Assembly (NCBI GenBank): GCA_965223425.1
Contig: OZ245003.1
Span: forward strand, 2,368,001-2,432,000
Length of the DNA: 64,000 nt
Direction: 5' to 3'
From: Nitrosopumilus sp.
GTDB taxonomy: Archaea; Thermoproteota; Nitrososphaeria; Nitrososphaerales; Nitrosopumilaceae
Position numbers and translations under genes: made by a program. Shown piece after piece: positions 23,901 through 40,280 of this stretch (position 1 is its first letter; every line of letters starts with the position of its first letter). The notes beneath the pieces were generated by a model. It searched no databases and was not told the DNA's origin. It was given only the letters and a program-made list of their open reading frames with translations.

Positions 23901-25742
23901 CTAACTTGGAATGACTCCGCCTGATTTTTTGATTGCATTTTCGAAGGCCTCCCAAATTTTTGATGTCTTTACTTTTTGTAAACCATCTTGTTGTTTTAAC
24001 AAATCCTTCATGAAAGAATATGCATTTTCTTTCAGTTTTTCTGAACATTTCCAACCTAATTTTTTATACTCATCTTCTAGATCCACGGGTAGTTTAGTTA
24101 CATTATCCATATTTTCATGGTATTCGTTATCCACCATCGCAATAAATGGGATATCAAAGGCATTATGAAGTTCAATATTAGGATAGACATTAGCCACACC
24201 CCACATCTGCATCACAAAAATATTATATTTTTTAAACAAGCCGCCAAAATGATCTGAAATTGCCTCTAAGGCAAATTTATCACCTGCTCCTTCTCCAATT
24301 AAAGTACAATTACTGAAAAATACTTCAGGATTAAATAAATGAGATTTTAATGTGATTTGGAAGTCAGTTGGAAGAGATTTTACATTACTTTCTCCATTGA
24401 CTCTATTAAGATAGATTAATGAGGAAGAATCTGGCTTTGCAAGTAATTCATAAGATGCAAATTTTGGCGAATGTGAGATGATAATTATTTGATTGTTTTT
24501 TGATACAGCAAGCTCAGATAGTTTCTGAGATAAATGATTGATTTTGATTGGATGAAAATGAATTTCTGGCTCGTCAATCACTAAAATTTGATTTGGTTTA
24601 GCCAGAATAGTGTATAAGATATGAATTAATGCATAATGTCCTGAAGCTGATTCTTGCAAATTAAATTCTTTGTCTTTTTCACTTAATCTAATTTGTAATG
24701 AACTGTTTCCATGTTCATCAGAAACCTCATCTACACGTACCGCTATGCCATTAAAAATATTTGAAAATTCTTTCTTCAGTGTTTCGTAAGTTGGCTCATG
24801 TTGACTTTTCATATTGAATAATTGCTTTGTTAATTTATCATATGTTGGATGAATTTCTTCAATAAACGTTAGATTGTTATCAATAATTTTATGTAATAAC
24901 TGATCTAATTGTACTCTAACATTTGTATTCTTTCTTATTTGCATATATTCTAGAATGTCAGATGCAGTTTGAGTTGGATTTTGATTGCTATACATGATTT
25001 CTAATTTAACTTGTGTCCACCATTTAGTATCACTAGTCATCAAAACAGATGAAGGAGGAGAGCCATTTGTTAAAGCATCTAATAATGTACCTTGTGTACC
25101 AATACTATCATCTTCACGCATTGTGTATGATTTTGCAATTCTTTCTGGGATGGAATTCATTTTTAAGGATTGTATGTTAGTGAGTAACTCATCAATAGTG
25201 CCTGAAGAATTACTAGCGGAAATATAATCAAAAACAACTTGACGTCCATCTTTCTCAACAATTGTGAGACCATTCTCAAAATAATACATTAAGAAATTCG
25301 GATGGGCTGTATCACTTATTGTGTTATTCCAATTTACTATAACATTAAGATTTTTTAGAGCATTAGGAAAAGTATCTTTATCTATTTTAGAACCAAACAT
25401 TGTTTGTAGAACTAATTTTGCTTCGTTATCTGTGAATTGTAATTGTAATAAGATTCGAGAGTTGCCAGTTTGATCAAATTTTTTATTTCTATCTAATGGG
25501 AGTAAATTTAAGTTGCTATTTTTACATATGAATTGTAATATTCTTATCAAATTAGTTTTTCCAGAGTTATTTGCACCCACAACCACATTGTATTTATTAA
25601 AATAAAAATCAGAATTTTTGAATGACAAAATATTTTGAATGTTTACTCGTTTTAGATGCATCCTATGATTGTAATAATTCATAATATAAGATCTTGGATC
25701 CGTACAACATGGAACAGTACGAAAGGATGATAGAGCAGACAA
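23901..25742 (-). CDS. OLD-family ABC ATPase-TOPRIM nuclease (start likely 25661)
   Basis: Walker A GANNSGKT, ESASG signature, IDEPEIHFHP, ISHSP, TOPRIM GEGAGD and VDNE. Confidence 0.85.
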   Translation of the reverse strand: MSALSSFRTVPCCTDPRSYIMNYYNHRMHLKRVNIQNILSFKNSDFYFNKYNVVVGANNSGKTNLIRILQFICKNSNLNLLPLDRNKKFDQTGNSRILLQLQFTDNEAKLVLQTMFGSKIDKDTFPNALKNLNVIVNWNNTISDTAHPNFLMYYFENGLTIVEKDGRQVVFDYISASNSSGTIDELLTNIQSLKMNSIPERIAKSYTMREDDSIGTQGTLLDALTNGSPPSSVLMTSDTKWWTQVKLEIMYSNQNPTQTASDILEYMQIRKNTNVRVQLDQLLHKIIDNNLTFIEEIHPTYDKLTKQLFNMKSQHEPTYETLKKEFSNIFNGIAVRVDEVSDEHGNSSLQIRLSEKDKEFNLQESASGHYALIHILYTILAKPNQILVIDEPEIHFHPIKINHLSQKLSELAVSKNNQIIIISHSPKFASYELLAKPDSSSLIYLNRVNGESNVKSLPTDFQITLKSHLFNPEVFFSNCTLIGEGAGDKFALEAISDHFGGLFKKYNIFVMQMWGVANVYPNIELHNAFDIPFIAMVDNEYHENMDNVTKLPVDLEDEYKKLGWKCSEKLKENAYSFMKDLLKQQDGLQKVKTSKIWEAFENAIKKSGGVIPS

Positions 25743-25858
25743 TCAAGGCTATGTCTGGTTACATTTTGGATTAGCGTCCAAGAGCACTTTGTTTGAGCAT
25801 AGCCAACAGACTAACTCACAGTATGTGGCGGCATATGCCCTATTCTTTTTTCTAAAAT

Positions 25859-26302
25859 TTAGATCATCTTGATTTTTTTCAAAGCCTCGGTTAAACTTAC
25901 TAACATTTCTTCCATTCTACTGCGTGAGAAGGTCAGGCAAGTAGCACGCATTTGTATGTTGGAGGGAATTTCAACCATCTCTTCTGCAATAATTACTACG
26001 GGCTTGTTAGTTGCCTGACCAATTTCATCGATCACGTTTTGGCTTGGATAAAAAATCTCTTTTTCATTTTTAGATGACTTGATGTCTTTTGTAAGTATGG
26101 CTAGCAATGCATTTGATTCGGTAATCAGATCACTTACTTGAGTACTGGGAGATAAATCCGCCCTTCCTGTTTCTTTAGCAGAAAGAACGGTAAATCCCAA
26201 GGCCTTAAGCAATCTGCTTACTAGATCATAGAGACTATTATTTTTCTCCTGCATGGCAAAACTGATGAATATTGTAATGCCTTCTAAAGAGAAAGGCGGC
26301 AT
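25859..26302 (-). CDS. TIR-like / nucleoside deoxyribosyltransferase-like protein
   Basis: IFISF, LLAILT, SQNVIDEIG (catalytic Glu position) and IPSNI motifs. Confidence 0.7.
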   Translation of the reverse strand: MPPFSLEGITIFISFAMQEKNNSLYDLVSRLLKALGFTVLSAKETGRADLSPSTQVSDLITESNALLAILTKDIKSSKNEKEIFYPSQNVIDEIGQATNKPVVIIAEEMVEIPSNIQMRATCLTFSRSRMEEMLVSLTEALKKIKMI

Positions 26303-26385
26303 TTCCTAGTTAAAGTGAATAAACAATTGAATCACTTGAAGAATCGATAAAACTTGTGCATTTGGAATTCATTACAATATCAAAT

Positions 26386-26828
26386 ATATTCAAACTATGT
26401 CGCCTAACTCCCTCTCATTTTTGGAGTGCAAAAATGAAACAGAGTTTACGATACTAAAAAAACTGTACAGATATCCGTTGCTGGGGGTTGTTGCCAAATT
26501 CCCGCCTACATAGTCCTTATCCAATATTCGACCCTTATTCGCGCCTGTAGAAAAGCCACATATCACACAAATCCAACAGCAAGATACAATTCGGCAACAA
26601 CCCCCCGTTGCTGTGCTCTAAAGAATGGGATTTTCATGCTGCACGTGAATTTGATATGACCAATAATTCCAACCTATTTCATACCACCAAGGTTGGATAT
26701 CCTCTTTATGAAGGGAAGATGATCTATCAATTTGAACATAATTATCTAGAACCGAGATATTGGATTGACGAAGAAGAGGGCCGCGCAGTTTTAGAATCAA
26801 AAGAACTCAGTAGAATGAAAAAAATAAA
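26386..26828 (+). repeat. Inverted repeat copy R1a (313 bp plus MITE), matching 29044-29356
   Basis: Reverse complement of 29044-29356 apart from the 130-bp MITE+TSD and one G/T change at 26614. Confidence 0.95.
26484..26604. mobile_element. MITE, 121 bp
   Basis: TIR GGGGTTGTTGCC(A/G)AATT; 9-bp TSD CCGTTGCTG (26475-26483, 26605-26613); empty site present in the other repeat copy. Confidence 0.93.
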
Positions 26829-27445
26829 CAAGGATCATAAGACATCACCAAAATTAGATCTGTCATATTACAGATTAGCTTGGAGGGATATTTCAAATGC
26901 TATTGATAGACGTACATTAATTTGTACTATTATGCCTCCACATGTATTTTTAGGTAACACATTATCATACATTCGCCCCATAGAGTTTGATGGTAAAAAA
27001 TATGTTTGTTCATTATCTTATAAAGAAATAATTTTTTTATGTGGTCTCTTCAACTCATTTCCAATTGATTTTATTTTGCGTCATCGAATAAATTTACACG
27101 TAAGTATTTTTTATTTAATGGAATTATCTATTCCAAAATTTGATGAAAATAATTTATTACATCAAAAAATTCTAGAAAATACAGCTAAATTAATTTGCAC
27201 TACTGATGAATTTGAAGAATTATCAACACAAATTGGAATCAGTGGGGGTGTACATGATGCAAAAAAACGTTTGAAACTCATATCTCAGATTAATGCATAC
27301 GTGTCTAAAATATATCATCTAAATCAAGAGGATTTGAAATTTATTTTAGAGTATTTCAGAGTAGAAGATGAAAATCTAAAAAAATCAACTTTAGAAGAAT
27401 TTGTGAAATTGGAATGAGTCAGATATTAGTTAGTAATATGAATCA

Positions 27446-28366
27446 TCATATTTTAAGATCATTTATTCCTTTTATGAATTCTGCAAATAATTCATCAAGC
27501 GTAGGTACGAAATATACACCGTCAAGTCCATTCTTATGGCCCATGAGTTTTTCTACAACATTATAATTTATTGAATTATTTAGTTTTAGTAACGTATTGA
27601 ATCTTTTTCTAAATCCATGATGCATTTGAATGTCATATCTGTTTCCTTCTAAATTCCGGATTATCGAAGATTTCTTTATTAAATTAAACATTACATTTTT
27701 TACAGAATTGGAATTCATCTGATTTTTTATGTCATATGAGATAAAAAGTGGAGATTCCTTCGTCATGAGTTCTCCTCTCCTTACTCTGTATCTGTGATAA
27801 TCATTTAAGAGTTTTACAGCTTGTGGTGTAAGAAATGACCAGTATTCATCCATATGATCTGCGTATAGTTTTATTGCCATGCACCCATACTTCATTTTTT
27901 TAGTATGTTTTAATTGTAAACTGTGATCAAATATTCCCACTCTTGCGCCAGTGGATGCAAGAAAATGTACTAATGCTTTCGTTCTCACACTTCTAACACA
28001 TTTGAGCATATTTTGTATATCTCTAGTTGTCCATGGTTTATGTCCCGTTCTTTTTTGTTTTTGAGGAAATAATTTATGAATAATATCCCAGTTGATATTC
28101 TTTCTGTTCATTATACAAAAATGTCTTAATCCTGTAAATCTCACAGGAATTGAATTTGGGTTTATTGTGTGTTTTAATTCAATCAAATAATCTTCTAACA
28201 TTTGCTGTAATTTTACTGAAGAAATAGCTGTAAGTTGATGGACAAATTCAATATTTATGAATTGCATGAATCGTTTTAAGTTTGTAATGTAAAGATCTTT
28301 TGTGTATTCAGATTTTATAGATTCCTCAAATAGAATCATCGATCTTTGTAAAGATGTTATAGCCAA
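27446..28366 (-). CDS. Tyrosine recombinase between the inverted repeats
   Basis: STGARVG, HGFRKRF, LMGH and GVYF catalytic motifs. Confidence 0.92.
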   Translation of the reverse strand: MAITSLQRSMILFEESIKSEYTKDLYITNLKRFMQFINIEFVHQLTAISSVKLQQMLEDYLIELKHTINPNSIPVRFTGLRHFCIMNRKNINWDIIHKLFPQKQKRTGHKPWTTRDIQNMLKCVRSVRTKALVHFLASTGARVGIFDHSLQLKHTKKMKYGCMAIKLYADHMDEYWSFLTPQAVKLLNDYHRYRVRRGELMTKESPLFISYDIKNQMNSNSVKNVMFNLIKKSSIIRNLEGNRYDIQMHHGFRKRFNTLLKLNNSINYNVVEKLMGHKNGLDGVYFVPTLDELFAEFIKGINDLKI

Positions 28367-28442
28367 TTTTACTTCATGTTAAATTATTTTCTAACTATAA
28401 GAAACAATTAGTTTGAGTCAAAAAACATAGAACCAATTTTTC

Positions 28443-31400
28443 TTAGACTATCTTTTTATTACTCTGACTAAATTCGTTTAATGATAGTTTTTTTAACTGC
28501 TTATTAGCAATAGGAAAATTTTTTAAAATTAATTTCAAATCATCATGATCTAAATTATATATTTTAGCTACACATGCGTTAATTTGAGATTCTAAAGCAA
28601 AACGTTTAGCACTTTGAGTTTCATAATCAGAAATACCTAATGAATTGCGTAATTTGGAGAATTCATCCGTAGTGCAGATTAATTTAACTGTATTTTCAAA
28701 AACTCTATTATGTAATTTATTTGATTTATCAAATTTTGGAATAGGTAATTCCATTAAATAAAAAATATTAAGATTAGTGGCTACCTTATGACGTAAAATA
28801 AAATCAATTACAAAGGAATTAAAAATACCACATAAAAAGATAGTTTCATTTAGAGAAATTGAACGGACATGTTTTTTGCCGTTAAAGATTAAAGGAGAGA
28901 GATAATTTAACGAGTTCCCTAAAAATAAATTATACGGTAAAATTGTACTAATTAGAGTTCTTTCATTAGTTGAATTAGTTATGGATCGCCATACCAGTCT
29001 ATATTCATCACAATCAATTCTAGAGTCAGCATTATGATCTTTATTTATTTTTTTCATTCTACTGAGTTCTTTTGATTCTAAAACTGCGCGGCCCTCTTCT
29101 TCGTCAATCCAATATCTCGGTTCTAGATAATTATGTTCAAATTGATAGATCATCTTCCCTTCATAAAGAGGATATCCAACCTTGGTGGTATGAAATAGGT
29201 TGGAATTATTGGTCATATCAAATTCACGTGCAGCATGAAAATCCCATTCTTTAGAGCCCAGCAACGGATATCTGTACAGTTTTTTTAGTATCGTAAACTC
29301 TGTTTCATTTTTGCACTCCAAAAATGAGAGGGAGTTAGGCGACATAGTTTGAATATGTTTTAGATCATAATCATATGCAATTTTTTTATGATTTTGAAGT
29401 ATTGATGCATCTTCAAGATAAAAGCTGGCAAGAAATTTTTTTGTTGTATTACCTTTAGTGAATATAATTAAACAGAATTTGAATTGTCGATGAATTCCTT
29501 CAAAAATCCCTTTTTTATTGATAAATGAGTATAATGAGTTAATTTTAGTTTTCTCAATAAGCATTTCTCTTAATCCTTTGGAACCTAAATCTGAATAAAT
29601 TCCAGATGGAACTACAAATCCGCATAATCCATTTTTACCTAATTGAGCATATGATCTCTCTGTGAATAATTTATACAAATTTAGATCACTGGATTGTTTT
29701 TTGCCGTTAACTATTGATGACTGATAATAATATGAACCACTGTTAAAATATTTCATTTGTTTTTCATAATATCTGTTATACAAATCATAATCGACTTTGA
29801 TTTTTTTATCTTTCAAGCACTCTTTAACAAATTTATTTTTTTTATTTTTAGTTAACATACTAAACTTTTGTTCAGTATTTTTTAAATTATAAAAAGGAGA
29901 AAAGAATTCATCAACGTCTGGTTTTACTATCTGCCATGGTGGATTTCCAACAACCCCGTCAAACCCAGAATTCTTCCTCCGCTTCCCGTCATCATCATAA
30001 AAGATATCTGGAAACTCCAAGTCCCAATGAAAAAACGAATGTTCCTGTGACACCTTCTTGACCTGCTGCCATCTCTCGTCTGAATAAAAGTCAAGGCCGT
30101 TCTCGCCGATTTTGGCCACATAATCGCCTATCGGAGGCACATCGACACCAAACGATTTTGCCAGCTTTGCATCAAGCATGAATTTCAGATCATAGTATGT
30201 GGTTCCCTTTTGCTGCATATTCTCATATTTTACAACCTTTGTTTTTACCGCAGATGGTGTATCGTCTTCTAGCTGTTCAAGCATGATAAAGTCCTTTACA
30301 ATCTTCTTAAAACGACCCCTGCCCTTTGTGGATTCTATGAGGGTAGTCTGTTTTTCCAATATGTCGTCAATGCTAGCTCCAATCAACGAGTTTCCTGTTT
30401 TTAGATGGGCGTTCAAAAAAGATAGCGGCCTTTCAGAAGACAATGTTTCTAGCCACAAGGACACCTGTGCTAGATCCACTGCAAGTGGGTTGAGATCCAC
30501 ACCATAGATACACCGCCTGACAACATCCCTTTTTCTCTCTACAAACGCATGTTCGGAAATTTCATCTTCGTACTCTATATGGCAGATCCTTCTTGCAATA
30601 TAGTTTGTAGCTCCAACCAGAAAGTGACCTGATCCCATGGCAGGATCCAGTATGTTCAGTGCCAGTATGTCATCTACTTGCTGGCTTTTGTCCGGTGTTT
30701 TTTTAACAATGTCATCAATTAACGGTCCTATAGTGTTTTTCACGATATAATCAACAATATACTGCGGAGTGTAATAACTTCCTGTGGATTTTCTCTCCTT
30801 TGGGTTTGGGAGATCTGAAACCTTACCATCTTTTATTGTGAGGTGAAACTCCAGCAGATGCTCATAGATTGCGCCGAGATGGCGGGTCTCAAGTGCGGCA
30901 TAGTCCAAAAAGAAATAGTTGTCCTTTTTGTCACGCGTTCTGGTCAGCAGGCCTATTGCCTCAAGAAGATTCTTGTTTGGAATCTTCCATTTTTCAAGTT
31001 CGTGGTGTATTTTTCTGTCAAACAGTCTGCCATAATATGAACGCATGAAAAATTCCTCATGCTTGTAATCAAGATCCTCACTTCCAACTTCTATCAACCG
31101 AAACAACTTTCTCAGCCGTTCCTGAACCTGATACTGGCCAATCTTTTTCTTTTTCTTTTGGTCGTTTTTTAAAATCCATTCCTGCTTTATCCACTTTAAG
31201 CTAAAATTGTCATGATAGAACTTTTCATCAGGAAATATCGACCTGTCTTCCGCATAAAGGACAAACATGATCCTGTACAGCAAGATGAATGTGGGTTCTC
31301 TGATCTCTTCTAACGTATGCTCATCCAAAGTCAGTTTATTTGACTCGTCCAAAATTATTCCCTCTGATAATATCTTTAATGCCTCAAAGACATTTACCGT

Positions 31401-31916
31401 AAGCTCATTGTGAATTTGTACTGCAAACGAGTCAAAGGCATCAGATATTTTGGATACGATTGACGATGCGGTCATTTTCGGTTCAACCTTGATTTTTTCG
31501 AGGAATTCCACAAAGGTTTTTGGAACGCCAGCATCTGGTCTGATATCTATTGGAACGTGTCTTGTTTCTGAAAAAGACTTTGAGAATTCCTTCGAAAGGC
31601 TTGAAAACACCCACTTGAATCCGCCCGGATTGTGCGAGCACACCATGCAAAATCCGTTATTCTGCTTGATTATCTTGGCAGCTATCCCCTTCCAGTTTCT
31701 CAGGGAATCTGTGTTTGTCTGGACATAGTAAATTCGGTAATCGTTTTTGCTTGCAATTATTCTGGCCTCTGAGACGGTCTGTTTTTGTTCCTTGCTCCAA
31801 CTATCCTTGTTGACTGGCTTGTTTTCAAAATCAAAGTTCAATTCTGAGAATAGACTGCGTAACGAATCCAGATCTTTTAGCCTGTATGCCAAGTTTTCCA
31901 GCTTTTTATCTACCAA
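28443..31916 (-). CDS. Eco57I-like / type IIG-like adenine DNA methyltransferase with C-terminal TRD
   Basis: LGAIYEHLL, GSYYTP, motif I DPAMGSGHF, GVDLNP, GNSL and motif IV GNPPW. Confidence 0.92.
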   Translation of the reverse strand: MVDKKLENLAYRLKDLDSLRSLFSELNFDFENKPVNKDSWSKEQKQTVSEARIIASKNDYRIYYVQTNTDSLRNWKGIAAKIIKQNNGFCMVCSHNPGGFKWVFSSLSKEFSKSFSETRHVPIDIRPDAGVPKTFVEFLEKIKVEPKMTASSIVSKISDAFDSFAVQIHNELTVNVFEALKILSEGIILDESNKLTLDEHTLEEIREPTFILLYRIMFVLYAEDRSIFPDEKFYHDNFSLKWIKQEWILKNDQKKKKKIGQYQVQERLRKLFRLIEVGSEDLDYKHEEFFMRSYYGRLFDRKIHHELEKWKIPNKNLLEAIGLLTRTRDKKDNYFFLDYAALETRHLGAIYEHLLEFHLTIKDGKVSDLPNPKERKSTGSYYTPQYIVDYIVKNTIGPLIDDIVKKTPDKSQQVDDILALNILDPAMGSGHFLVGATNYIARRICHIEYEDEISEHAFVERKRDVVRRCIYGVDLNPLAVDLAQVSLWLETLSSERPLSFLNAHLKTGNSLIGASIDDILEKQTTLIESTKGRGRFKKIVKDFIMLEQLEDDTPSAVKTKVVKYENMQQKGTTYYDLKFMLDAKLAKSFGVDVPPIGDYVAKIGENGLDFYSDERWQQVKKVSQEHSFFHWDLEFPDIFYDDDGKRRKNSGFDGVVGNPPWQIVKPDVDEFFSPFYNLKNTEQKFSMLTKNKKNKFVKECLKDKKIKVDYDLYNRYYEKQMKYFNSGSYYYQSSIVNGKKQSSDLNLYKLFTERSYAQLGKNGLCGFVVPSGIYSDLGSKGLREMLIEKTKINSLYSFINKKGIFEGIHRQFKFCLIIFTKGNTTKKFLASFYLEDASILQNHKKIAYDYDLKHIQTMSPNSLSFLECKNETEFTILKKLYRYPLLGSKEWDFHAAREFDMTNNSNLFHTTKVGYPLYEGKMIYQFEHNYLEPRYWIDEEEGRAVLESKELSRMKKINKDHNADSRIDCDEYRLVWRSITNSTNERTLISTILPYNLFLGNSLNYLSPLIFNGKKHVRSISLNETIFLCGIFNSFVIDFILRHKVATNLNIFYLMELPIPKFDKSNKLHNRVFENTVKLICTTDEFSKLRNSLGISDYETQSAKRFALESQINACVAKIYNLDHDDLKLILKNFPIANKQLKKLSLNEFSQSNKKIV
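29044..29356 (-). repeat. Inverted repeat copy R1b (313 bp) inside the main methyltransferase gene
   Basis: Encodes IQTMSPNS...LSRMKKI, the same as 26386-26828. Confidence 0.95.
29934..30125 (-). repeat. Diverged inverted repeat copy R2a, matching 39018-39209
   Basis: DYVAKIG.NGLDFYSDERWQQVK...FDGVVGNPP shared; perfect stretches of 21 and 20 bp in the first ~70 bp. Confidence 0.88.
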
Positions 31917-31918
31917 AT

Positions 31919-34900
31919 TTAATCGCCCACATATTTGCTGTACAGAATCCGAGGGGACTTGCTTTCCTCCTCGCTTTGTTTTATCTGGTTTTGCAGATTG
32001 TAGTGCAGGTATAGCTGGCCAAGATGCTCCAACAAATCCGAGTCTTTCATTTCACTCTTTTTGATTTTCAACAGTTCCTTGTTCAACTTTCCCTTCAGGA
32101 TTGGGATGGAATATGCCTTTCGAAGAGTTTCAATCATCTCTTTTTTATCAAGAAATTCCTTGATACTGTCCATCTTTATCAGTTTTTCAATCACCCATCT
32201 TTGTGCGGTACCAAGCCTCATGCCGGTTTCTCTGGCCTGGATCTGTTCTGTATCCTCAACAAATTTCTTCCAGCCCACAGACACTAGTCTGTCATAGTCT
32301 GAAGGGGCAGAATAAACTGCTGCATCGTCTGACTCTAAAATTTCTAAGGCTTCCTGCGACCTTATCTCTCTGACCTCTCCTTTCTGGCTGATTAGATAGT
32401 ATTTTCGCACCTTGCCACTCCTCTCTGTTCCGCTCTCACACGCCAAAAGCAACCGGCCAGCAGATTTTATATTGCCTGAGCTTCTTACTCCGTCAGGAAT
32501 TGACTTTATCTCTTTCCAAAACTCTGGCTTGTTGATCTGAATGTCTCGCAGAATCTTCTCAAATTTTGATGGCTCTAAGAGGTTTTCCTCCTCCCTGTCC
32601 AAAATTGATGCATCGCACTTGTAGATTGCATAATTGTCACTGGTGTTTATTGGCTCGCCAGGTTTGAGTATCTGATAGTCTTCCCCGATTATCTTTTGTA
32701 TGCTGTTAATTTTGTTGTCTACTTGATCCTCAAGGCTGAAATGCTCTTTCATCTCTGGATCTAGAAGAAAATTATGCACCGTAACGAATTCGTTTTTGCT
32801 TCCAATTCTGTCTACCCTTCCAGCCCTCTGAATCAGCCTAGTCGGATTCCAGTGAAAGTCATAGTTGATTATTACCTGGCCTGCTTGAAGGTTTACTCCT
32901 TCGGATAACACATCAGTAGAGATCAACAAAGAAGTCTGATCGTCTTTTTTGAGTTTTGGTCCATTGCTTGGATTGTTGTCCGGATCAAATCGTCTGGCAC
33001 ATTCGATAGAATTGCCGGTATCCGAATCCACCTGCTCTTTGATTTTCTTCCATCGTATGTACTCATACAGGTATTTTGCAGTGGTGGCAAATTCCGAGAA
33101 TATGAGAACCTTCTTTCCAGAATATTCCTTGTCTAGAAGATCCTGCAACCTGTGCAGCTTGTCATCGGTCTTCCACGTAAGCCTATGGACAAGCCCGTCA
33201 ATTGTCTCAAATATCTCTTTATCATTTTGGATGTCAGAAGCAAGTCTCTCAATATCGAATGCCTCAAACTTGTACTTTGTCTCCCCAGCTTCCTGAACTT
33301 TTTTCCTAAACTCGTCAATAGTTTTAGGATCATATATCGAATCAGGATCAGATTGTGCAATCTCGTACATTTCCTTGTAGGACACATCCCCTATGGGAAT
33401 AATTCCCTCCTCTAGCAATTTGAGGAAAATATTGTGACTGTTGATGTAGTGTCTGATACTTTGTTTGAATGCCTCAAGGCTACTCTCCATCCTCTTTAGC
33501 AAGAGCGTCCTGATTAGTCCTATGAGTTTTGTCCCTGCTGTCTTTAGTTCCTTGTATAGCTCAACTTCTTTGTATTCGTCCTTCAAATACGATCCAATAC
33601 TATATCTTGCAAGAGTGAGGGTTTTTTCACCGAGCTTTTCTGGTTTTGGGTCCAAACTTGCGTTTGCGGTCATAAACTGATCCCTACAAGTGAGGGTTTT
33701 TTCACCGAGCTTTTCTGGTTTTGGGCTGGCAAGATAACCTACAATAGTCTCAAATTTTCTCTGATAGACTTTGTTGATATCATACCGCTCCGTTCTCATT
33801 TCTCGTTGAGGAAAATATTTTTTCTCATTCCCAACTTGTAGGTATGATCTACCGCCTTCATCTTCTTTGCCCCATTGTTTTAGGACATACCTCCGGGTTC
33901 TCCGTATCATGATGTTTCTGAGCAGATCTACCAAACTCGCCTCCCCGTTTTTTACCTGTATAAAGTATCTGTCAAGATCAGTTTCATTTGCTGGGGGTAT
34001 GAACGTCTGCGGCGTTTGGTGGAATAACATTATCTGGTTTTTAATGTCAGCAGCTTTGTTTGAATATGGAGTTGCGGTAAGCAGTATGGCCTTTGCATCC
34101 TGCGCCTGCATGAACTGATGTAGGTTTTCATACTGTCTTGAATTGTTGTTCCTGAAGTGATGGCTCTCATCAATCAACACCAGATCCCTGCTCTTGTACC
34201 TATAGTCCTGATACAGTTCAAAATTTTCCTGTGATAATTGACCCCTCGACAAAACCTTTGCGTCCACCTCATAATCCTCACAGAATTTTTCCCACATTGG
34301 CATGAGGGGCGGCGGGCAGATAATCAGAGGCCTGTAATCTTGAAGCTGCAGATACTTCAGTAACGCGGTTCCGATGTAGGTCTTTCCCAATCCGACAACA
34401 TCTCCAATTATCATGCCGCCATACAGTTCAAACATTGTAAGGCCTTGATCCACCGCATTTCTCTGAAATGGGAACAGTTTCGGAAATGTTTGTTCCCATA
34501 TGGGATCAATTTCGTGTTGCCCCTCCAGCCTTTCCTTATACTCCAGATATGTAGCCTTTAAAAACAGGTCTCTGGGCGAATATATTTTTCCTGCCCACGA
34601 ATTTGTCAGTATCAGATTAAAATCCTCTGTGAACTCTAGTCCGTCTTTCCATAACGTATCAAACCATTTCAACAGTTGGTTTACATCCAGTGGATTTTGT
34701 GTTTTGAGGTTAAGCTCGCTGTTCTGGGAGATTCCCGCAATGGACAAATTGCTTGAACCAACAACGCCCATACCCTGTGAGAAGTCGGTATCTGTTGGCT
34801 GAAAGATATACGCCTTTGCGTGCAGCTTCTCTTTTGGGTATACTCTTACTTCTAGCTGTTTTGACTTCATCATTTCAATGAGTAATTCCACTACAGTTTT

Positions 34901-35257
34901 GTCATCGACAGTCTGACTCATGTGTTCTAGAGATTGTTTTACGTTGTCCCTACAGTCTGAAATCACACTGCTCTTCCTGTCGGCGTTTACAAAATTTTTC
35001 TTATCAACTTCGGTTTGCGCTTCCCGGATGCTATGAAACCCCTCAATTAGGGCTTCTGCGGTAGTCTTGTCGGTGGTATTTGAGATTAGCAGACGAATTT
35101 TATCTACACCCTTTAGGGATTGAATAACAACTGAGAGCCCAGAGATGAAAAAATAGCCTACTGCGATACTAGCCTTTTCGGTCTTTGGAAGAATTCGTAG
35201 AAGTTCGTCTTTCAGAATCACATCTCTGTTGTCAATTACGTTGTCTTCCCGAAGCAT
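31919..35257 (-). CDS. PLD-nuclease + SNF2-like helicase, partner of the methyltransferase
   Basis: LHAKAY and GSSNLS (PLD); GDVVGLGKT, IDESHHFRN, LTATP and QRAGRVDRIG (SF2); 2 nt from the MTase start. Confidence 0.92.
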   Translation of the reverse strand: MLREDNVIDNRDVILKDELLRILPKTEKASIAVGYFFISGLSVVIQSLKGVDKIRLLISNTTDKTTAEALIEGFHSIREAQTEVDKKNFVNADRKSSVISDCRDNVKQSLEHMSQTVDDKTVVELLIEMMKSKQLEVRVYPKEKLHAKAYIFQPTDTDFSQGMGVVGSSNLSIAGISQNSELNLKTQNPLDVNQLLKWFDTLWKDGLEFTEDFNLILTNSWAGKIYSPRDLFLKATYLEYKERLEGQHEIDPIWEQTFPKLFPFQRNAVDQGLTMFELYGGMIIGDVVGLGKTYIGTALLKYLQLQDYRPLIICPPPLMPMWEKFCEDYEVDAKVLSRGQLSQENFELYQDYRYKSRDLVLIDESHHFRNNNSRQYENLHQFMQAQDAKAILLTATPYSNKAADIKNQIMLFHQTPQTFIPPANETDLDRYFIQVKNGEASLVDLLRNIMIRRTRRYVLKQWGKEDEGGRSYLQVGNEKKYFPQREMRTERYDINKVYQRKFETIVGYLASPKPEKLGEKTLTCRDQFMTANASLDPKPEKLGEKTLTLARYSIGSYLKDEYKEVELYKELKTAGTKLIGLIRTLLLKRMESSLEAFKQSIRHYINSHNIFLKLLEEGIIPIGDVSYKEMYEIAQSDPDSIYDPKTIDEFRKKVQEAGETKYKFEAFDIERLASDIQNDKEIFETIDGLVHRLTWKTDDKLHRLQDLLDKEYSGKKVLIFSEFATTAKYLYEYIRWKKIKEQVDSDTGNSIECARRFDPDNNPSNGPKLKKDDQTSLLISTDVLSEGVNLQAGQVIINYDFHWNPTRLIQRAGRVDRIGSKNEFVTVHNFLLDPEMKEHFSLEDQVDNKINSIQKIIGEDYQILKPGEPINTSDNYAIYKCDASILDREEENLLEPSKFEKILRDIQINKPEFWKEIKSIPDGVRSSGNIKSAGRLLLACESGTERSGKVRKYYLISQKGEVREIRSQEALEILESDDAAVYSAPSDYDRLVSVGWKKFVEDTEQIQARETGMRLGTAQRWVIEKLIKMDSIKEFLDKKEMIETLRKAYSIPILKGKLNKELLKIKKSEMKDSDLLEHLGQLYLHYNLQNQIKQSEEESKSPRILYSKYVGD
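33614..33725. repeat. 37-bp perfect direct repeat flanking a 38-bp unique spacer, in frame within the helicase
   Basis: AGTGAGGGTTTTTTCACCGAGCTTTTCTGGTTTTGGG at 33614-33650 and 33689-33725; PKPEKLGEKTLT occurs twice in the protein. Confidence 0.95.
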
Positions 35258-35439: not shown

Positions 35440-36399
35440 TTGCGCATAATCTCTAATATAACAACCTCCAGATTTGCTGGTATCATGCACATGCAAGATC
35501 ACGAAAATCAAAATGCAAGAACTTTGCCAAAGTATATGGACGTATTGAAATTAAAATCAAAGTCCACTCAAAAACTCTTTTCATCTACCATGAACAACAT
35601 CTGCATGTTTGGCCGAATCGACATGACAAAGATATTAGAGTATGACGAAGAGGAGATACATGATCGTCTCCAAGACTGGATAATGTGGAACGCCAAACGG
35701 GGAATCACCACTGCAAGCATTATGTGCTATTTCAACTCGTTTAGATCCTATTTGAGGTATCGCAGAATTAGGATTGACTGGAACTACATGCTCCATGATC
35801 TCACGTTTCCACAGATGCTACACGAGAACAAGACGCCGGTAACACCTGATGTAATAAGGAAGATCCTTTCCGTATCGGAACCCGAGTTCAGATTCCAGCT
35901 TCTGGCGCTGGTATCAAGCGGAATGAGATCTGGCGAGCTTGGCCAGATAAGGCCAAAACACCTCGATTTTACATGTTCAAACATAGCAGTCAGAATACCC
36001 GCACAGATAACCAAGACCGGAAGATCACGAGTTACGTTTTTTTCACGGCAGGTATCTGACATGATACGGTACAGAATGAAAAACAAACCGGAATTTACGT
36101 TCTGCGGAACCAGAACGCCGGAGCAGTCCCTGAACCTGATCATAAAGCGGTTTTCTGTAGCAAGAAAAAAAACGGGCATGATCGAACGGTATGATCACTG
36201 CAAGCAAAACAGGTACAAGGTTCACGTCCATGGCCTGCGCTCGTACTTCATAACCAAGACAAACAAGATACAGTTCGGGTTGGGGCATATCTTGGCCGGA
36301 CATGACTTTTACATGAAGCAGTACAACCAGTACACTGTTGACGAAATGCTGTCAATGTACAGGGATGCCGAGGATGACCTTACATTCCGAGGAATATGA
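35440..36399 (+). CDS. Tyrosine recombinase/integrase (start probably ~35485-35491)
   Basis: SSGMRSGE, TKTGRSR, HGLRSYF, LAGH and QYNQY motifs. Confidence 0.92.
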   Translation: MRIISNITTSRFAGIMHMQDHENQNARTLPKYMDVLKLKSKSTQKLFSSTMNNICMFGRIDMTKILEYDEEEIHDRLQDWIMWNAKRGITTASIMCYFNSFRSYLRYRRIRIDWNYMLHDLTFPQMLHENKTPVTPDVIRKILSVSEPEFRFQLLALVSSGMRSGELGQIRPKHLDFTCSNIAVRIPAQITKTGRSRVTFFSRQVSDMIRYRMKNKPEFTFCGTRTPEQSLNLIIKRFSVARKKTGMIERYDHCKQNRYKVHVHGLRSYFITKTNKIQFGLGHILAGHDFYMKQYNQYTVDEMLSMYRDAEDDLTFRGI

Positions 36400-37397: not shown

Positions 37398-38766
37398 CAG
37401 TAGTTCCCAGATGTAGATTTGCCGCAACCGCAACTGGCATCGGTTCTACTTGCCTCGATCATTGACAAACAACTCGTTTCTGCTTGTAATGTACACGATA
37501 AACAACGCCATGGTGAGTTTTTTTCCCGCAGAAGACACTCTTCCATGCCTCTTTCCCGCATCAAGGCAGAACCTGGCAATCCTCCACAGGTTGTACAGCA
37601 GCAGCGGCAGGTAAAACATCAGCAGCCTCACAGACAGGGAGTTGCTGCATGTCCTGCCCATGATCTCCTTTATGACGCGAAACCCCGTCTCGATGCCCCA
37701 TCTCTTGCGGTACTGCTCCGGTATGATGCCTGTCATGGCTCTGGCGCTCCTGATGGGAATGTTTGTTGCAAACGCAATGTATTGCTCCTCCTCCTCCTCT
37801 TCCCCCTCCTTTTTCTTCTTCTTCTTCCTGTCTCTTTTGACAATTACAAGGTTGTAGGTCACAGTTACGCCGTCTTTGTTGGTCATTGACTGCTGCGATA
37901 CCTGGCTTGCCTTTCCGTCCTTGTACATCTTGACTATCCTCTTGATCTTGGAGTTCATGATGACAGGCATAATGTAGCGGCACCCGCCCTTTCCTGCCTC
38001 TGTCATGCAGTCAACGTTGTAAAAGGCGCGGTCGTACAGGAACACAGTCTTTGAGTGTGCGCCCCCTCTGAGGATTTTCGTGCGTGTTTTGGCTATAAAA
38101 TCGGCCAGTTTTTCCTTTGCCGGCAGCAGCTGCGATTCCAGGACAATCTGCGAGGAGTCCCTGCCGACTCCGTGCACTGCGACATACGAGAGAAACGTGG
38201 ATGTTCCTGCCCTTGGACGCGACTTTCTTGTATGCTCCTGCAGCTGCTCCCCATGGTATGGTATGTCCGTAACGTCTATTGCAATGGCGTCGATGTCCTG
38301 CAGCATTCCTGTATGGCAGGCGTGCTGCACCGTGCGTGCCAGCGTCCTTGCACACCAGGCCTGCACGTCTGCCGGTTCGACGCCACGGACTGCAGACATG
38401 ACCAGGTCTGCGCCAGGCGTACGTGCACCCGTGTCTTGAAGCCTGCTGCGCCGTACGAGGGATTCTACAAACGTGTTTCTCTCAGACGCCCTGATTAGCA
38501 CGTCCAGTATGTCATTGCATCCGTATACGGCGTTGTGCCTCTCAGACATTGGCATGCCAAGCTTTTGAAACGACGAGCGCAAGATTTTAAACCGGTTTGA
38601 TGTTATATTGTACTGGCGTGCGATCAGATCGTCTTGTAATTCGACTTTCATGACATATTGCACGCCGTAGCCTAATCTGGATCTTTGCATTGCAGTTATG
38701 CGGTAACGCACCGGCATCTGGGCATAAACCTACATCTGGGCACAAATCTACATCTGGGAACTACTG
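37398..38766 (-). mobile_element. ISH3-like insertion sequence, intact copy (1369 bp)
   Basis: TIR CAGTAGTTCCCAGATGTAGATTTG; 4-bp TSD ATGT (37394-37397, 38767-38770). Confidence 0.93.
37446..38717 (-). CDS. ISH3-like DDE transposase (true start probably somewhat downstream)
   Basis: IAIDVT, LYDRAFY, FATN and YRKRWGIETGFR motifs. Confidence 0.92.
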   Translation of the reverse strand: MPVRYRITAMQRSRLGYGVQYVMKVELQDDLIARQYNITSNRFKILRSSFQKLGMPMSERHNAVYGCNDILDVLIRASERNTFVESLVRRSRLQDTGARTPGADLVMSAVRGVEPADVQAWCARTLARTVQHACHTGMLQDIDAIAIDVTDIPYHGEQLQEHTRKSRPRAGTSTFLSYVAVHGVGRDSSQIVLESQLLPAKEKLADFIAKTRTKILRGGAHSKTVFLYDRAFYNVDCMTEAGKGGCRYIMPVIMNSKIKRIVKMYKDGKASQVSQQSMTNKDGVTVTYNLVIVKRDRKKKKKKEGEEEEEEQYIAFATNIPIRSARAMTGIIPEQYRKRWGIETGFRVIKEIMGRTCSNSLSVRLLMFYLPLLLYNLWRIARFCLDAGKRHGRVSSAGKKLTMALFIVYITSRNELFVNDRGK

Positions 38767-39014
38767 ATGTGTCTGACAGAATCATGATGTTTGTAAGCTG
38801 TTCTGTTTTTGATTTTATGGTGTACTCACTTGTTATGCTCTGTTGCTCTTTGTGCTCGTGTAAAATAAACAACCGCTGCCTGAGAATCTCCATCCCGGAT
38901 ATGATATCCATGCAAGACAACTTCAAAAACAGGTAATTTAATTGGATAGAATTCAGATGCACTGGGTAAATGTTCAGTATTTTGTATACGCGAACCAGAA
39001 ATACCAGTATTTTG

Positions 39015-40280
39015 GGAGATTATGTGGCCAAAATCGGCCAGAACGGCCTCGACTTTTATTCAGACGAGAGGTGGCAGCAGGTCAAGGAGGCAGCGGAGGC
39101 GCACTCGTTCTTCCACTGGGATCTGGAGTTTCCCGACATATTTTATGGTACAGACGGCAAGCGGAAAAAGAATCCCGGGTTTGATGGTGTGGTTGGGAAT
39201 CCTCCGTATGGTGCAAAGATATCAAAAAAAGAACAGGAATATCACAAGACAAAACTATCAAAAGTGGGCAGTACAGATACCGCACAACTAATGATTCATG
39301 CAGCTTGCAATTTATTATCCAAGTTCGGACATCATGGATTCATTGTTCCAAAAGCATTGGTTTTTGCTTCAAATTGGAAAAAAATCAGAGAATTCATCAC
39401 AGATGATCTATCAATTCTGATGGATTGTAAAAAGGTATGGAAAGATGTTAAGCTTGAGCAAGTGATTTACATCTATGAAAACAATTATGAGAAAAAATCC
39501 TATCTTGCTGGATCACGAATTGGCCAAAATCTTGTAGCAGATACAGAAGTTAATAAAAAAGAATGCATTCCATTTGAGTTTCTAATTAGTGGCATTACAA
39601 GAGATGAGATCAAACTAGGACAGAAAATTTATGAAAAATCCCAGAAGCTAAAAAAATATATCAACAATAGTCGTGGGTGTATGCTACAAAGTAGATTAAA
39701 GAAAAACGGCAACAACAAAGTTATCGGTGGTGCTCAAATTCAGCGATATTATATTACAGAATGTTTGAAAGGCTATTTGGATACTAAAGACATAGACAGT
39801 GATAAAGCATATGTTAAGTGGAATTCAATTCTTGCACAAAGAATTGTTGCACATATTGACAGTCCAACAGATCATCTAAAAATCACTGCAACAATACCGC
39901 CAAATATTGATTTCGTTATATTAGATACAATAAATCAGATTACCGTGAATAAGATCAACCCACTGTATGTTTTGGGGCTTTTAAATTCTAAGATAGTAAA
40001 TTGGTACGCATACAGGTTTATTTTTGCCAAAGCAATTAGAACAATGCAGTTGGATAATCCTACAACTGACAGAATCCCAATTATTGTAAACGAAGAAAAA
40101 GCAGTGATTGATAGGGTAAAAAAATTACTCAAATTATACTCTGTGAAATACCAGAATAAATCAACAGAAAACTACCCAAGCATAACAACCGAAGAAAATA
40201 AGCTGAATCATTTATTCTATAAAATATTTAGTTTAACGAGTGATGAAATTTCAATGGTAGAAGAATCAACTCCTAGGTGA
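39015..40280 (+). other. Second silent cassette: MTase motif IV half plus a different TRD
   Basis: Begins abruptly at GDYVAKIG (shared with the main gene); has GNPPY but no motif I; frame open to stop 40280; TRD much more divergent from the other two. Confidence 0.82.
39018..39209 (+). repeat. Diverged inverted repeat copy R2b
   Basis: Reverse-complement homologue of 29934-30125. Confidence 0.88.

What the first reader, a model, noticed from the sequence alone, without database searches (positions are those of the whole stretch)
26386..29356. Recombinase-containing invertible cassette that swaps the TRD of a methyltransferase (archaeal RM shufflon)
Seen: a 313-bp inverted repeat lies inside the main MTase gene and at the head of a start-less alternative C-terminus. 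The two ~200-aa tails are homologous but differ in likely specificity segments (WRSITNSTNERT vs WRDISNAIDRRT; RHKVATNLNIF vs RHRINLHVSIF). The only gene between them is an intact tyrosine recombinase. Inversion would fuse either tail in frame. Established: hsdS inversion loci such as the pneumococcal ivr locus do this for bacterial type I RM. Inference: the same logic applied to a PLD-helicase/type IIG-like system in an archaeon, which I do not know to be described.
Basis: partly seen in the sequence, partly recalled or inferred. Interest (0 to 1): 0.92.

Follow-up and report, generated by a model that had tools for sequence, protein, structure and literature searches.

The report
Archaeal invertible methyltransferase specificity switch
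An archaeal restriction-modification methyltransferase gene sits next to a silent, reversed spare copy of its DNA-recognition end, with a recombinase gene between them, a flip-switch layout already shown to work in bacteria; here flipping is not yet demonstrated and a small transposon splits one repeat.

Summary
A 313-nt exact inverted repeat (29044-29356) lies inside a 1157-aa Eco57I/PglX-like adenine methyltransferase gene. Its partner heads a start-less alternative tail. An intact tyrosine recombinase is the only gene between them. The left copy is not contiguous: a 121-nt MITE with a 9-bp target duplication splits it into 100 + 214 nt.

Both tails stay open and under purifying selection (dN/dS about 0.28; dS 1.3 in the tails against 0.05 in the repeat). 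Each tail type is the expressed C-terminus of full-length relatives. The tail alone folds like the M.BseCI/MmeI DNA-recognition half.

My best reading is a gene-altering programmed inversion that swaps the target-recognition domain. Because of the MITE, a crossover in the outer repeat would give a truncated (OFF) enzyme instead of the second specificity.

Inversion itself was not shown: the public runs are k-mer contigs, which cannot report orientation.

The same design, a Type II RM methyltransferase with an upstream PLD-SNF2 gene, is long-read-confirmed in bacteria (Milman et al. 2023), a study that did not scan archaea. This scan already noted a homologous archaeal case on other DNA (e1-5246375). 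Verdict: new member of a known kind.

The parts
31919..35257 (-). PLD (HKD) nuclease + SNF2-type helicase, 1112 aa. It lies 2 nt upstream of the methyltransferase gene and is the presumed restriction/translocation partner.
   Evidence: Pfam PLDc_2 1.6e-9, SNF2-rel_dom 5.3e-11, Helicase_C 2.7e-17. PADLOC 'HKD+Snf2' C3a139 7.3e-71.
28443..31916 (-). Expressed gamma-class N6-adenine methyltransferase with tail 1, 1157 aa; NPPW at aa 658-661.
   Evidence: Pfam Eco57I 5.1e-22, N6_Mtase 2.7e-13. PADLOC REase_MTase_IIG PDLC03613 2.1e-89 over aa 372-1140. AF2 model pLDDT 83.9; best folds BrxX/PglX, CamA, MmeI.
29044..29356 (.). Right repeat arm, 313 nt exact and uninterrupted, inside the expressed gene (near-identical range 29032-29371).
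26386..26485 (.). Left repeat arm, outer part (IR1), 100 nt exact copy of 29257-29356.
   Evidence: contig boundaries
26615..26828 (.). Left repeat arm, inner part (IR2), 214 nt exact copy of 29044-29257.
   Evidence: contig boundaries
26484..26604 (.). 121-nt MITE splitting the left arm. It has 12-bp perfect (17-bp imperfect) terminal inverted repeats. The 9-bp target duplication CCGTTGCTG lies at 26475-26483 and 26605-26613.
   Evidence: The same termini flank at least 12 copies of a ~1.07-kb DDE-transposase IS in the genome, and two other small copies have 9-bp duplications. The empty site is kept in the right arm.
26406..26446 (.). Candidate recombinase core site, left copy: an 18-5-18 imperfect dyad with a perfect inner part, TCATTTTTG-GAGTG-CAAAAATGA.
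   Evidence: Only two such dyads occur in the 64-kb window, both in the repeat; 6 of 2000 shuffles of the repeat reach it. The perfect 9-5-9 form occurs only at these two places in the 2.64-Mb genome, with 0 hits for the backward control.
29296..29336 (.). Candidate recombinase core site, right copy, with the asymmetric spacer in the opposite orientation.
28443..29031 (-). Tail 1, the variable part of the expressed target-recognition region (aa 963-1157).
27446..28366 (-). Tyrosine recombinase, 306 aa (likely start at M10). It lies inside the invertible segment, co-directional with and 76 nt downstream of the methyltransferase in the present state.
   Evidence: Pfam Phage_integrase 5.9e-7. R142/H250/R253/H277/Y285 invariant in 40 sequences.
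26841..27417 (+). Tail 2, silent alternative target-recognition region. It is open for all 191 aligned codons and has no start or promoter context of its own.
   Evidence: PADLOC PDLC03613 5.3e-28 on profile positions 979-1239/1250. The tail-2 motif type is expressed in full-length relatives P0130 and P0162.

Best explanation
This is a gene-altering programmed-inversion module. The operon encodes a PLD-SNF2 nuclease/helicase and a PglX/MmeI-like adenine methyltransferase whose last ~195 residues form the variable part of its DNA-recognition domain. Downstream lie a tyrosine recombinase and, reversed, a promoterless second version of that tail headed by the same ~340 nt as the expressed gene.

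Recombination between the two inverted copies flips the ~2.2-2.9-kb segment that carries the recombinase. That replaces tail 1 with tail 2, so the methylated (and presumably restricted) sequence changes in part of the population.

In this genome a MITE has landed between the outer (100-nt) and inner (214-nt) parts of the silent repeat. A crossover in the inner part still gives an in-frame tail-2 enzyme. A crossover in the outer part, where the only recombinase-like dyad lies, carries the MITE into the gene and truncates the enzyme at about aa 896, an OFF state.

Shown: the anatomy, an intact recombinase catalytic set, selection on both tails, homogenisation of the repeat, a TRD-like fold, and natural use of both tail types. 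Inferred: that inversion occurs, that this recombinase catalyses it, and that the two tails read different sequences.
For: Repeat and layout. Two copies confirmed by about 2x depth in run X1.

Selection: beyond the repeat there are 191 aligned codons with dS 1.31, dN 0.37 and no stop in the silent tail. Inside the inner repeat dS is 0.047. This step is what concerted evolution of a recombining repeat gives and what a decaying pseudogene does not.

Recombinase: Pfam hit and invariant R-H-R-H-Y residues.

Recombinase relatives sit beside RM specificity genes. A 53% paralogue in the same genome lies next to a TBP gene, hsdS, hsdM and a further long ORF (not scanned against Pfam). Of 8 family-genome loci holding 52-56% relatives, 5 show hsdS, hsdM or that TBP within the 1.5-kb flanks held, and 1 of 24 metagenome loci shows hsdS+hsdM.

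Dyad in the repeat: unique in the genome.

TRD identity: the full model matches BrxX/PglX (E 4e-19), CamA, MmeI (2.5e-13), M.BseCI, DrdV, BpuSI and LlaGI. For the tail-only model (pLDDT 73.6), all 5 hits at E<=0.001 are M.BseCI chains, followed by MmeI at prob 0.94.

The two differing segments are hypervariable in the family and recur in a few pairings, between conserved flanks, among the 120 listed homologues. Tail 1's pair (STNER+ATNLN) occurs in 8 and tail 2's type (A[IV]DRR + NLH[VA]S) in P0130 and P0162.

Precedent for the same architecture, with long-read proof, exists in bacteria (PMC9881135).
Against: No read or contig shows the flipped state unambiguously. All four runs laid are k-mer contigs, and an inversion between exact repeats longer than k creates no new k-mers.

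The one suggestive record is a 324-nt contig in low-depth run X5. It joins the end of the outer repeat directly to the inner repeat and on into tail 2, without the MITE. It fits a flipped form, a MITE-free strain, or a chimeric graph path equally well.

The MITE in the silent arm may mean the switch is no longer under selection.

No second example of this layout was found among 150 family genomes searched with the tail. Of these, 17 have a homologous tail at 26-35% identity and none has a linked second copy.

Conservation of the layout is therefore untested.

The 313-nt identity is far longer than a site-specific recombinase needs, so homology-driven recombination could do the job without this enzyme.
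Confidence: 0.6

Rival explanations
1. A relic or locked switch. The module once inverted (here or in the low-GC donor it came from), but in this strain it is frozen in the tail-1 state. The MITE insertion is a sign of relaxed selection, and the recombinase is idle or serves another locus.
For: MITE inside the silent arm. No orientation variant seen. The whole 3' module is compositionally foreign: 27.7% GC for 28443-29939 against 41.3% for the 5' part of the same gene. The region carries IS and integrase debris.
Against: The repeat is still 100% identical over 100 + 214 nt and the recombinase and both tails are intact. The MITE belongs to an IS family with at least 12 full copies carrying identical or 1-mismatch termini, so the insertion is probably recent and says little about long-term selection. 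An inner-repeat crossover is unaffected by it.
Confidence: 0.22
2. Inversion happens, but by general homologous recombination (RadA-dependent) across the long identical repeats. The neighbouring recombinase is dispensable, or is an integrase of the imported island.
For: A 313-nt identical repeat is ample for homologous recombination, and its synonymous-site homogenisation (dS 0.047 against 1.31) is the footprint of homology-driven exchange or conversion. In pneumococcus, recombination at the phase-variable spnIII type I locus is reported as independent of all known site-specific recombinases (PMC6620402; title and abstract seen in the listing only). An archaeal tyrosine recombinase (Int-pTN3) that recombines identical segments as short as 104 bp is described in the review PMC8371274 (passage read).
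Against: The recombinase sits exactly between the two tails inside the segment. Its family recurs beside RM specificity genes. A genome-unique recombinase-type dyad lies in the repeat.
Confidence: 0.12
3. Not a switch at all: a chance product of duplication and rearrangement in a defence island, where the reversed tail is a pseudogene fragment left by the same events that made the gene chimeric.
For: The island shows other rearrangement scars. One is a 3' remnant of a paralogous methyltransferase at 38970-40280. Its first 191 nt are an 82% inverted copy of 29938-30128 and end exactly at the GC seam. There is also an IS and two further integrase-like genes.
Against: A fragment left to drift would not keep 191 codons open at dS 1.3 with dN/dS about 0.28, and would not keep a 313-nt head identical while the rest diverged. 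The layout matches every sequence attribute of confirmed bacterial loci.
Confidence: 0.06

Closest known systems
Long-read-confirmed gene-altering programmed inversions in bacterial Type II RM enzymes homologous to C. jejuni Cj0031, with an adjacent PLD + SNF-helicase CDS (Milman, Yelin and Kishony, NAR 2023, PMC9881135; loci CP083813.1:5324991-5328359 and CP044495.1:1257875-1261063 in their Table 3)
   Same: A large Eco57I-type methyltransferase gene next to a PLD-SNF2 gene. Inverted repeats lie inside the long gene and at the head of a short reversed partial copy. There is the same gene/pseudogene size asymmetry and a recombinase nearby. The outcome is an exchanged C-terminal part.
   Different: Those loci are bacterial, the authors state they scanned bacteria only, and variants were seen in long reads. 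Here the host is an archaeon, the recombinase belongs to a lineage-specific archaeal family, one repeat is split by a MITE, and no variant has been seen. Sequence homology of this enzyme to Cj0031 was not tested here.
BREX type 1 PglX inversion loci (L. rhamnosus and B. casei in Milman 2023; earlier evidence attributed there to Goldfarb et al. 2015, which I did not read)
   Same: The best structural match of the enzyme is BrxX/PglX. Both use a recombinase-linked exchange of part of the methyltransferase.
   Different: None of Pfam, PADLOC or ORF inspection of the neighbours named a brxA/B/C, pglZ or brxL gene. The PADLOC PglX score is weak (2.6e-14 against 2.1e-89 for the IIG profile). In L. 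rhamnosus a middle part is exchanged by nested inversions; here the C-terminus is exchanged.
Type I hsdS inversion systems (pneumococcal ivr/SpnD39III with CreX/PsrA)
   Same: A tyrosine recombinase, repeats inside coding sequence, silent partial specificity genes, and several repeat lengths at one locus.
   Different: In those systems the specificity subunit is a separate protein with two TRDs. Here the TRD is the C-terminus of the methyltransferase itself, and only two alleles are present.
MmeI-family (Type IIL/IIG) and Type ISP (LlaGI) enzymes
   Same: A gamma-class methyltransferase followed by a C-terminal TRD in which a few loop residues set specificity. In Type ISP the enzyme is coupled to a helicase and nuclease.
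   Different: No nuclease domain is recognisable in the methyltransferase polypeptide (aa 1-370 match no Pfam nuclease family). The nuclease (PLD) and motor (SNF2) are on a separate protein.

Membership tests
Gene-altering programmed inversion locus (sense of Milman et al. 2023) | Inverted repeats, one inside a long CDS and one at the head of a shorter reversed partial paralogue | tested here: met
   313 nt exact repeat. The long gene is 1157 aa; the reversed copy covers about the last 310 aa.
Gene-altering programmed inversion locus (sense of Milman et al. 2023) | Recombinase gene in or beside the invertible region | tested here: met
   Tyrosine recombinase at 27446-28366 lies between the arms.
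Gene-altering programmed inversion locus (sense of Milman et al. 2023) | Both orientations coexist in a population or among near-identical strains | tested here: inconclusive
   The 4 runs laid were all k-mer contigs that break at the repeat. One X5 contig (outer-repeat end + inner repeat + tail 2, no MITE) is compatible with the flipped form but also with a MITE-free strain or a chimeric path.
Bacterial class (b) of Milman et al.: Cj0031-like Type II RM enzyme with a PLD + SNF helicase neighbour | Adjacent CDS with a phospholipase D domain and an SNF2-type helicase domain | tested here: met
   Gene at 31919-35257, 2 nt upstream: PLDc_2, SNF2-rel_dom, Helicase_C; PADLOC HKD+Snf2.
Bacterial class (b) of Milman et al.: Cj0031-like Type II RM enzyme with a PLD + SNF helicase neighbour | Sequence homology of the methyltransferase to Cj0031 | not tested
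   No Cj0031 sequence was available from a tool. Only the shared Eco57I/N6_Mtase families were shown.
Tyrosine recombinase (Phage_integrase, PF00589) | Catalytic R...H-x-x-R...H/W...Y set | tested here: met
   R142, H250, R253, H277 and Y285 are invariant in 40 aligned family members. Pfam 29.9 bits against a 27.1-bit cut-off.
Type IIG / MmeI-like single-chain RM enzyme | Gamma-class N6A methyltransferase motifs followed by a C-terminal TRD | tested here: met
   NPPW at aa 658-661 is invariant. Profile hits to MmeI, PglX and CamA. Fold matches.
Type IIG / MmeI-like single-chain RM enzyme | Endonuclease domain in the same polypeptide | tested here: not met
   No nuclease family was found in aa 1-370 by Pfam or PADLOC; the IIG profile aligns only from its position 462. 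The enzyme is therefore filed as IIG-like methyltransferase-TRD, not as a IIG enzyme.
BREX type 1 (PglX) | Neighbouring brxA, brxB, brxC, pglZ and brxL genes | tested here: not met
   The neighbours scanned are PLD-SNF2, integrase-like genes, IS, OLD-like ATPase and a TIR-domain gene.
DISARM class 1 (DrmMI) | DrmA helicase and DrmB (DUF1998) in the locus | tested here: not met
   PADLOC DrmMI and DrmD profiles hit the two genes (3.4e-65, 3.8e-29). No DUF1998 or DrmA-type gene was found among the neighbours scanned.
MITE (non-autonomous DDE element) | Short size, terminal inverted repeats, target-site duplication, no coding capacity, and an autonomous relative with the same termini | tested here: met
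   121 nt; 12-bp perfect inverted termini; 9-bp duplication; empty site in the other arm. At least 12 copies of a ~1.07-kb IS with the same termini encode a 332-aa DDE_Tnp_1 protein. Two other short copies have 9-bp duplications.

The most novel reading that the evidence does not exclude
A lineage-specific archaeal recombinase family acts as a dedicated 'RM-specificity invertase' across Nitrosopumilaceae-type archaea, serving both type I hsdS loci (often with a built-in TBP paralogue) and this PglX-like methyltransferase. At this locus, the MITE-split repeat and a second, outer inverted repeat (29938-30128 / 39015-39205, heading a third NPPY+TaqI_C-type cassette, with its own integrase-like gene between) would give one restriction system more than two heritable states: specificity A, specificity B, OFF, and possibly a third TRD. 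That would be a first experimentally tractable phase-variable methylome ('phasevarion') in archaea.
Probability: 0.2. Interest if true: 0.72.

Novelty: new member of a known kind. Interest (0 to 1): 0.45.

Why it matters
Programmed, gene-altering inversions are well documented in bacteria but hardly at all in archaea. The systematic survey covered bacteria only (PMC9881135). The long-read survey that included archaea had 42 archaeal data sets and reported 12 putative invertons; the passages I read name only one gene target, an adenylosuccinate synthase gene (PMC10028968). Its table of archaeal invertons is a supplement I could not open.

If this locus flips, clonal populations of an abundant archaeal group would carry mixed methylation and restriction specificities. 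That bears on virus-host dynamics and on epigenetic heterogeneity in these organisms.

The MITE-split repeat also offers a natural test of where the crossover occurs, because outer and inner crossovers give distinguishable products.

Tried and rejected
Orientation evidence from public reads. One run search gave 5 runs from 3 studies. All are k-mer contigs that stop at the exact repeats, so no orientation can be read, and both caps are now used. The parts of the locus without cover in X5 (27270-27710 and 28299-29180) are not interpreted. Several loose ends in X1, X3 and X4 (for example at 27124, 28768 and 29026) were not followed. Two of them sit at the conserved 'FYLMEL' segment shared by the tails and probably belong to other organisms' homologues.

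Relatives with the same layout.
- Tail protein against 150 family genomes: the best hits are only 26-35% identical and none has a linked second copy.
- Recombinase against 400 family genomes and 150 genus genomes: only 52-56% relatives.
- Genome-contig scan with the methyltransferase: 1 locus, L026, 46% identical in the tail, at a contig end, with in-frame stops.
- Metagenome-contig scan with the recombinase: 24 loci at 34-61% identity, none with this methyltransferase.
- Cluster look-up gave no accessions. Its short member P0241 is an N-terminal fragment, not a silent tail.
- P0126 has an aberrant short tail that looks like a frameshift or assembly problem and was not used.

Other negatives. 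Rfam on 26000-29500 gave no match, so the insert is not a known RNA. The insert folds no better than shuffles apart from its terminal stem (z -1.1). BLAST found the MITE in 0 of 150 other genus genomes; its IS relatives were found only by searching for the termini in the own genome. phmmer of the methyltransferase against PDB gave 0 hits; the profile search was needed. My first regular-expression count of specificity motifs failed and was replaced by an alignment-based count. No inverted repeat of 30 nt or more lies near the two paralogous recombinases, and none of 18 nt or more that looks meaningful lies at the type I locus.

Literature. I made four searches plus term look-ups in an archaeal RM review (PMC11033074), where 'phase varia', 'inversion', 'invertible', 'shufflon' and 'recombinase' each occur 0 times. 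None turned up a report of an invertible IIG-like methyltransferase in an archaeon. Data S2 of PMC10028968 (archaeal invertons) and Table S4 of PMC9881135 could bear on this claim.

BREX, DISARM, Type ISP and true Type IIG membership were considered and rejected (see Membership tests).

Full report
OBSERVATION. The region holds, on the minus strand, a 1112-aa PLD + SNF2 helicase gene (31919-35257), a 1157-aa methyltransferase gene (28443-31916) and a 306-aa recombinase gene (27446-28366). On the plus strand it holds a start-less open frame (to 27417) that repeats the methyltransferase C-terminus. The repeat finder reports inverted arms 26605-26840/29032-29267 (236 nt, 99%) and 26362-26485/29257-29380 (124 nt, 93%).

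Base-by-base comparison gives two exact stretches: 26386-26485 = 29257-29356 (100 nt) and 26615-26828 = 29044-29257 (214 nt). In the left arm they are separated by 130 nt.

Contigs of three public runs from two studies reproduce every unique junction. In the deep run X1 the repeat contigs have about twice the depth of the flanks (844 and 783 against 366-404), so the duplication is real.

THE INSERT. The 130 nt consist of a 121-nt element (26484-26604) with 12-bp perfect terminal inverted repeats (17 bp with one mismatch) and a 9-bp direct duplication, CCGTTGCTG. The right arm keeps the empty site. The same termini bound at least 12 copies of a ~1.07-kb element in this genome, which encodes a 332-aa DDE_Tnp_1 transposase. 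Two other short copies, each with a 9-bp duplication, also occur. The insert is therefore a MITE of a currently multi-copy IS family.

BLAST with the MITE found nothing in 150 other genomes of the genus. No Rfam family matches. Reading from the outer repeat into the MITE meets a stop after 9 codons.

THE GENES. The organism is an archaeon: TiaS and HMG-CoA reductase lie nearby, and the named relatives of the methyltransferase are Nitrosopumilaceae MAGs.

The methyltransferase matches Eco57I (5.1e-22) and N6_Mtase in Pfam, and a PADLOC Type IIG profile (2.1e-89). That profile aligns only from its position 462, so the first ~370 residues match no nuclease family. A 56-sequence alignment gave an AlphaFold model with mean pLDDT 83.9 and pTM 0.83. 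Its best PDB matches are BrxX/PglX (E 4e-19 to 1.5e-16, TM 0.40-0.45), CamA, MmeI (2.5e-13), M.BseCI, DrdV, BpuSI and LlaGI.

A model of residues 841-1157 alone (pLDDT 73.6) has five hits at E<=0.001. All are M.BseCI chains (3.8e-6 to 1.3e-5, TMq 0.47-0.49), and MmeI follows (E 0.02, prob 0.94). The query has no catalytic domain, so I infer that it aligns to the recognition half of those enzymes; the tool does not print the aligned residues.

The upstream gene carries PLDc_2, SNF2 and Helicase_C domains. I take it as the nuclease and motor partner by analogy with helicase-coupled RM systems; this is inference.

THE TWO TAILS. Beyond the repeat the tails align over 191 codons with 103 identical residues, dN 0.37 and dS 1.31. 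Within the inner repeat dS is 0.047. A silent fragment that kept 191 codons open at saturating synonymous divergence has been translated during its history. The abrupt step in dS at 26840/29032 is the mark of a repeat kept identical by recombination or conversion.

Tail 1's pair is the commonest. Tail 2's type (A[IV]DRR with NLH[VA]S) is the expressed C-terminus of P0130 and P0162. In the model both segments fall in loops (aa 978-989 and 1043-1050). That such loop residues set specificity in MmeI-family enzymes is recalled knowledge, not tested here.

THE RECOMBINASE. It passes the Pfam threshold narrowly (29.9 against 27.1 bits). In an alignment of 40 family members the residues R142, H250, R253, H277 and Y285 are invariant.

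The family is large: 783 proteins at E<=1e-20. It has two 53% paralogues in this genome. One of these lies beside a TBP gene, hsdS, hsdM and a further long ORF that I did not scan. Of 8 loci from other family genomes (52-56% relatives, 1.5-kb flanks), 5 show hsdS, hsdM or that TBP paralogue. One of 24 metagenome loci shows hsdS and hsdM; most of those loci are too short to tell. The family thus recurs beside RM specificity genes, which favours a dedicated role over a stray integrase. Earlier notes of this scan on other genomes say the same; they are leads only.

A CANDIDATE SITE. The repeat contains an 18-5-18 imperfect dyad (15/18) whose inner 9-5-9 part is perfect, at 26406-26446 and 29296-29336. 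It is the only such dyad in the 64-kb window, and 6 of 2000 shuffles of the repeat reach it. The perfect form occurs nowhere else in the 2.64-Mb genome, with 0 hits for the backward control. Its asymmetric spacer is inverted between the arms, as inversion requires.

The dyad lies in the outer repeat, outside the MITE. If it is the crossover site, the present-day flip would insert the MITE into the gene and give a truncated enzyme. If crossover occurs in the inner 214 nt, the product is an in-frame tail-2 enzyme. Which applies is unknown.

In the present state the recombinase is co-directional with the methyltransferase and 76 nt downstream of it. After a flip it would converge on it, so recombinase expression may depend on orientation; this is inference.

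DIRECT EVIDENCE FOR FLIPPING. There is none. An inversion between exact repeats longer than the assembler's word size creates no new words, and all four runs laid are kept as such contigs.

Run X5 (another study, depth 3-6, 44% of the words) has one 324-nt contig that joins the last 29 nt of the outer repeat directly to the inner repeat and runs on 69 nt into tail 2. In this genome that path exists only after an inner-repeat flip. A MITE-free sister strain or a chimeric path through a thinly covered repeat would give the same contig, so I count it as neither for nor against.

CONTEXT AND ORIGIN. GC falls from 41.3% (29940-31916) to 27.7% (28443-29939) within the methyltransferase gene, just after NPPW. 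It stays low through the recombinase, tail 2 and the TIR and OLD-like genes down to about 23900.

A 436-aa frame at 38970-40280(+) is the 3' remnant of a paralogous methyltransferase (Eco57I + TaqI_C). Its first 191 nt are an 82% inverted copy of 29938-30128 and end at the seam. An integrase-like gene (35440-36399) and an IS (37446-38717) lie between the two copies. Homologues confirm the modularity: P0122-P0125 share 58-64% of residues 660-962 but only 26-33% of the N-terminal 659. The switch cassette was therefore probably imported and joined at motif IV.

COMPARISON WITH WHAT IS KNOWN. [quoted passage not shown] They confirmed 11 that target Type II RM enzymes with long reads. [quoted passage not shown] They state that only bacteria were scanned and name archaea as future work.

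Chanin et al. (preprint; passages) examined 42 archaeal long-read sets and found 12 putative invertons. They point to Atack et al. for predicted archaeal type I systems. A 2024 review of archaeal RM systems does not mention inversion or phase variation. My four searches found no archaeal case of this kind in print.

This scan, however, has already reported a homologous archaeal locus on other DNA: e1-5246375, which shares 11 of 180 words with this methyltransferase.

VERDICT. The locus is a new, archaeal member of a known kind of switch. Interest is moderate.

Noticed in passing
26484-26604; genome copies e.g. G000:C1:61783-62857, 283668-284742, 1122389-1123463, 2467672-2468746: The insert in the silent repeat is a MITE of a ~1.07-kb IS (332-aa DDE_Tnp_1 transposase) present in at least 12 full copies with identical or 1-mismatch termini. 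Two other short derivatives, at C1:367143 and C1:801792, have 9-bp duplications. BLAST with the MITE found it in 0 of 150 other genomes of the genus.
   Followed up: yes
29938-30128 and 39015-39205; ORF 38970-40280(+): A second, outer inverted repeat (191 nt, 82%) ends exactly at a GC seam inside the methyltransferase gene (41% to 28%). It heads a 436-aa 3' remnant of a paralogous methyltransferase (NPPY, Eco57I + TaqI_C). An integrase-like gene (35440-36399) and a DDE IS (37446-38717) lie between the copies. This is either the scar of the inversion that made the gene chimeric or a larger second switch.
   Followed up: partly
G000:C1:1396226-1397137 (L003 7224-8153) and neighbours; loci L028, L031, L033, L034, L035, L045: Paralogues of the recombinase (52-56% identical) sit beside type I RM genes (hsdS, hsdM) and a TBP paralogue in this genome and in 5 of 8 related genomes examined. 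No inverted repeat of 30 nt or more and no second hsdS were seen at the own-genome locus.
   Followed up: partly
23901-26302: An OLD/GajA-like ATPase-TOPRIM gene (613 aa) and a 147-aa CAP12/Pycsar-type TIR-domain gene lie directly beside the silent tail, in the same low-GC island (32% GC). No PADLOC family hit the TIR-domain protein.
   Followed up: no
about 33600-33730 (helicase gene): The helicase protein contains a near-tandem duplication of the peptide PKPEKLGEKTLT with about 13 residues between the copies, seen in the translation.
   Followed up: no
45210-46199(-): An Mrr_N + Mrr_cat restriction endonuclease gene lies in the same island, which also holds further unassigned genes at 40469-42668.
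   Followed up: no
L026 211-845 (Nitrosopumilus sp. MAG contig end): The only genome-collection hit to the tail (46% identity) carries in-frame stop codons, so it may be a decayed copy or a silent cassette. The contig ends there.
   Followed up: no
L038-L047, L050 and others (metagenome loci): Many contigs that carry recombinase relatives begin 160-185 nt upstream of the gene. This suggests a repeated sequence that breaks assemblies just upstream of this gene family.
   Followed up: no
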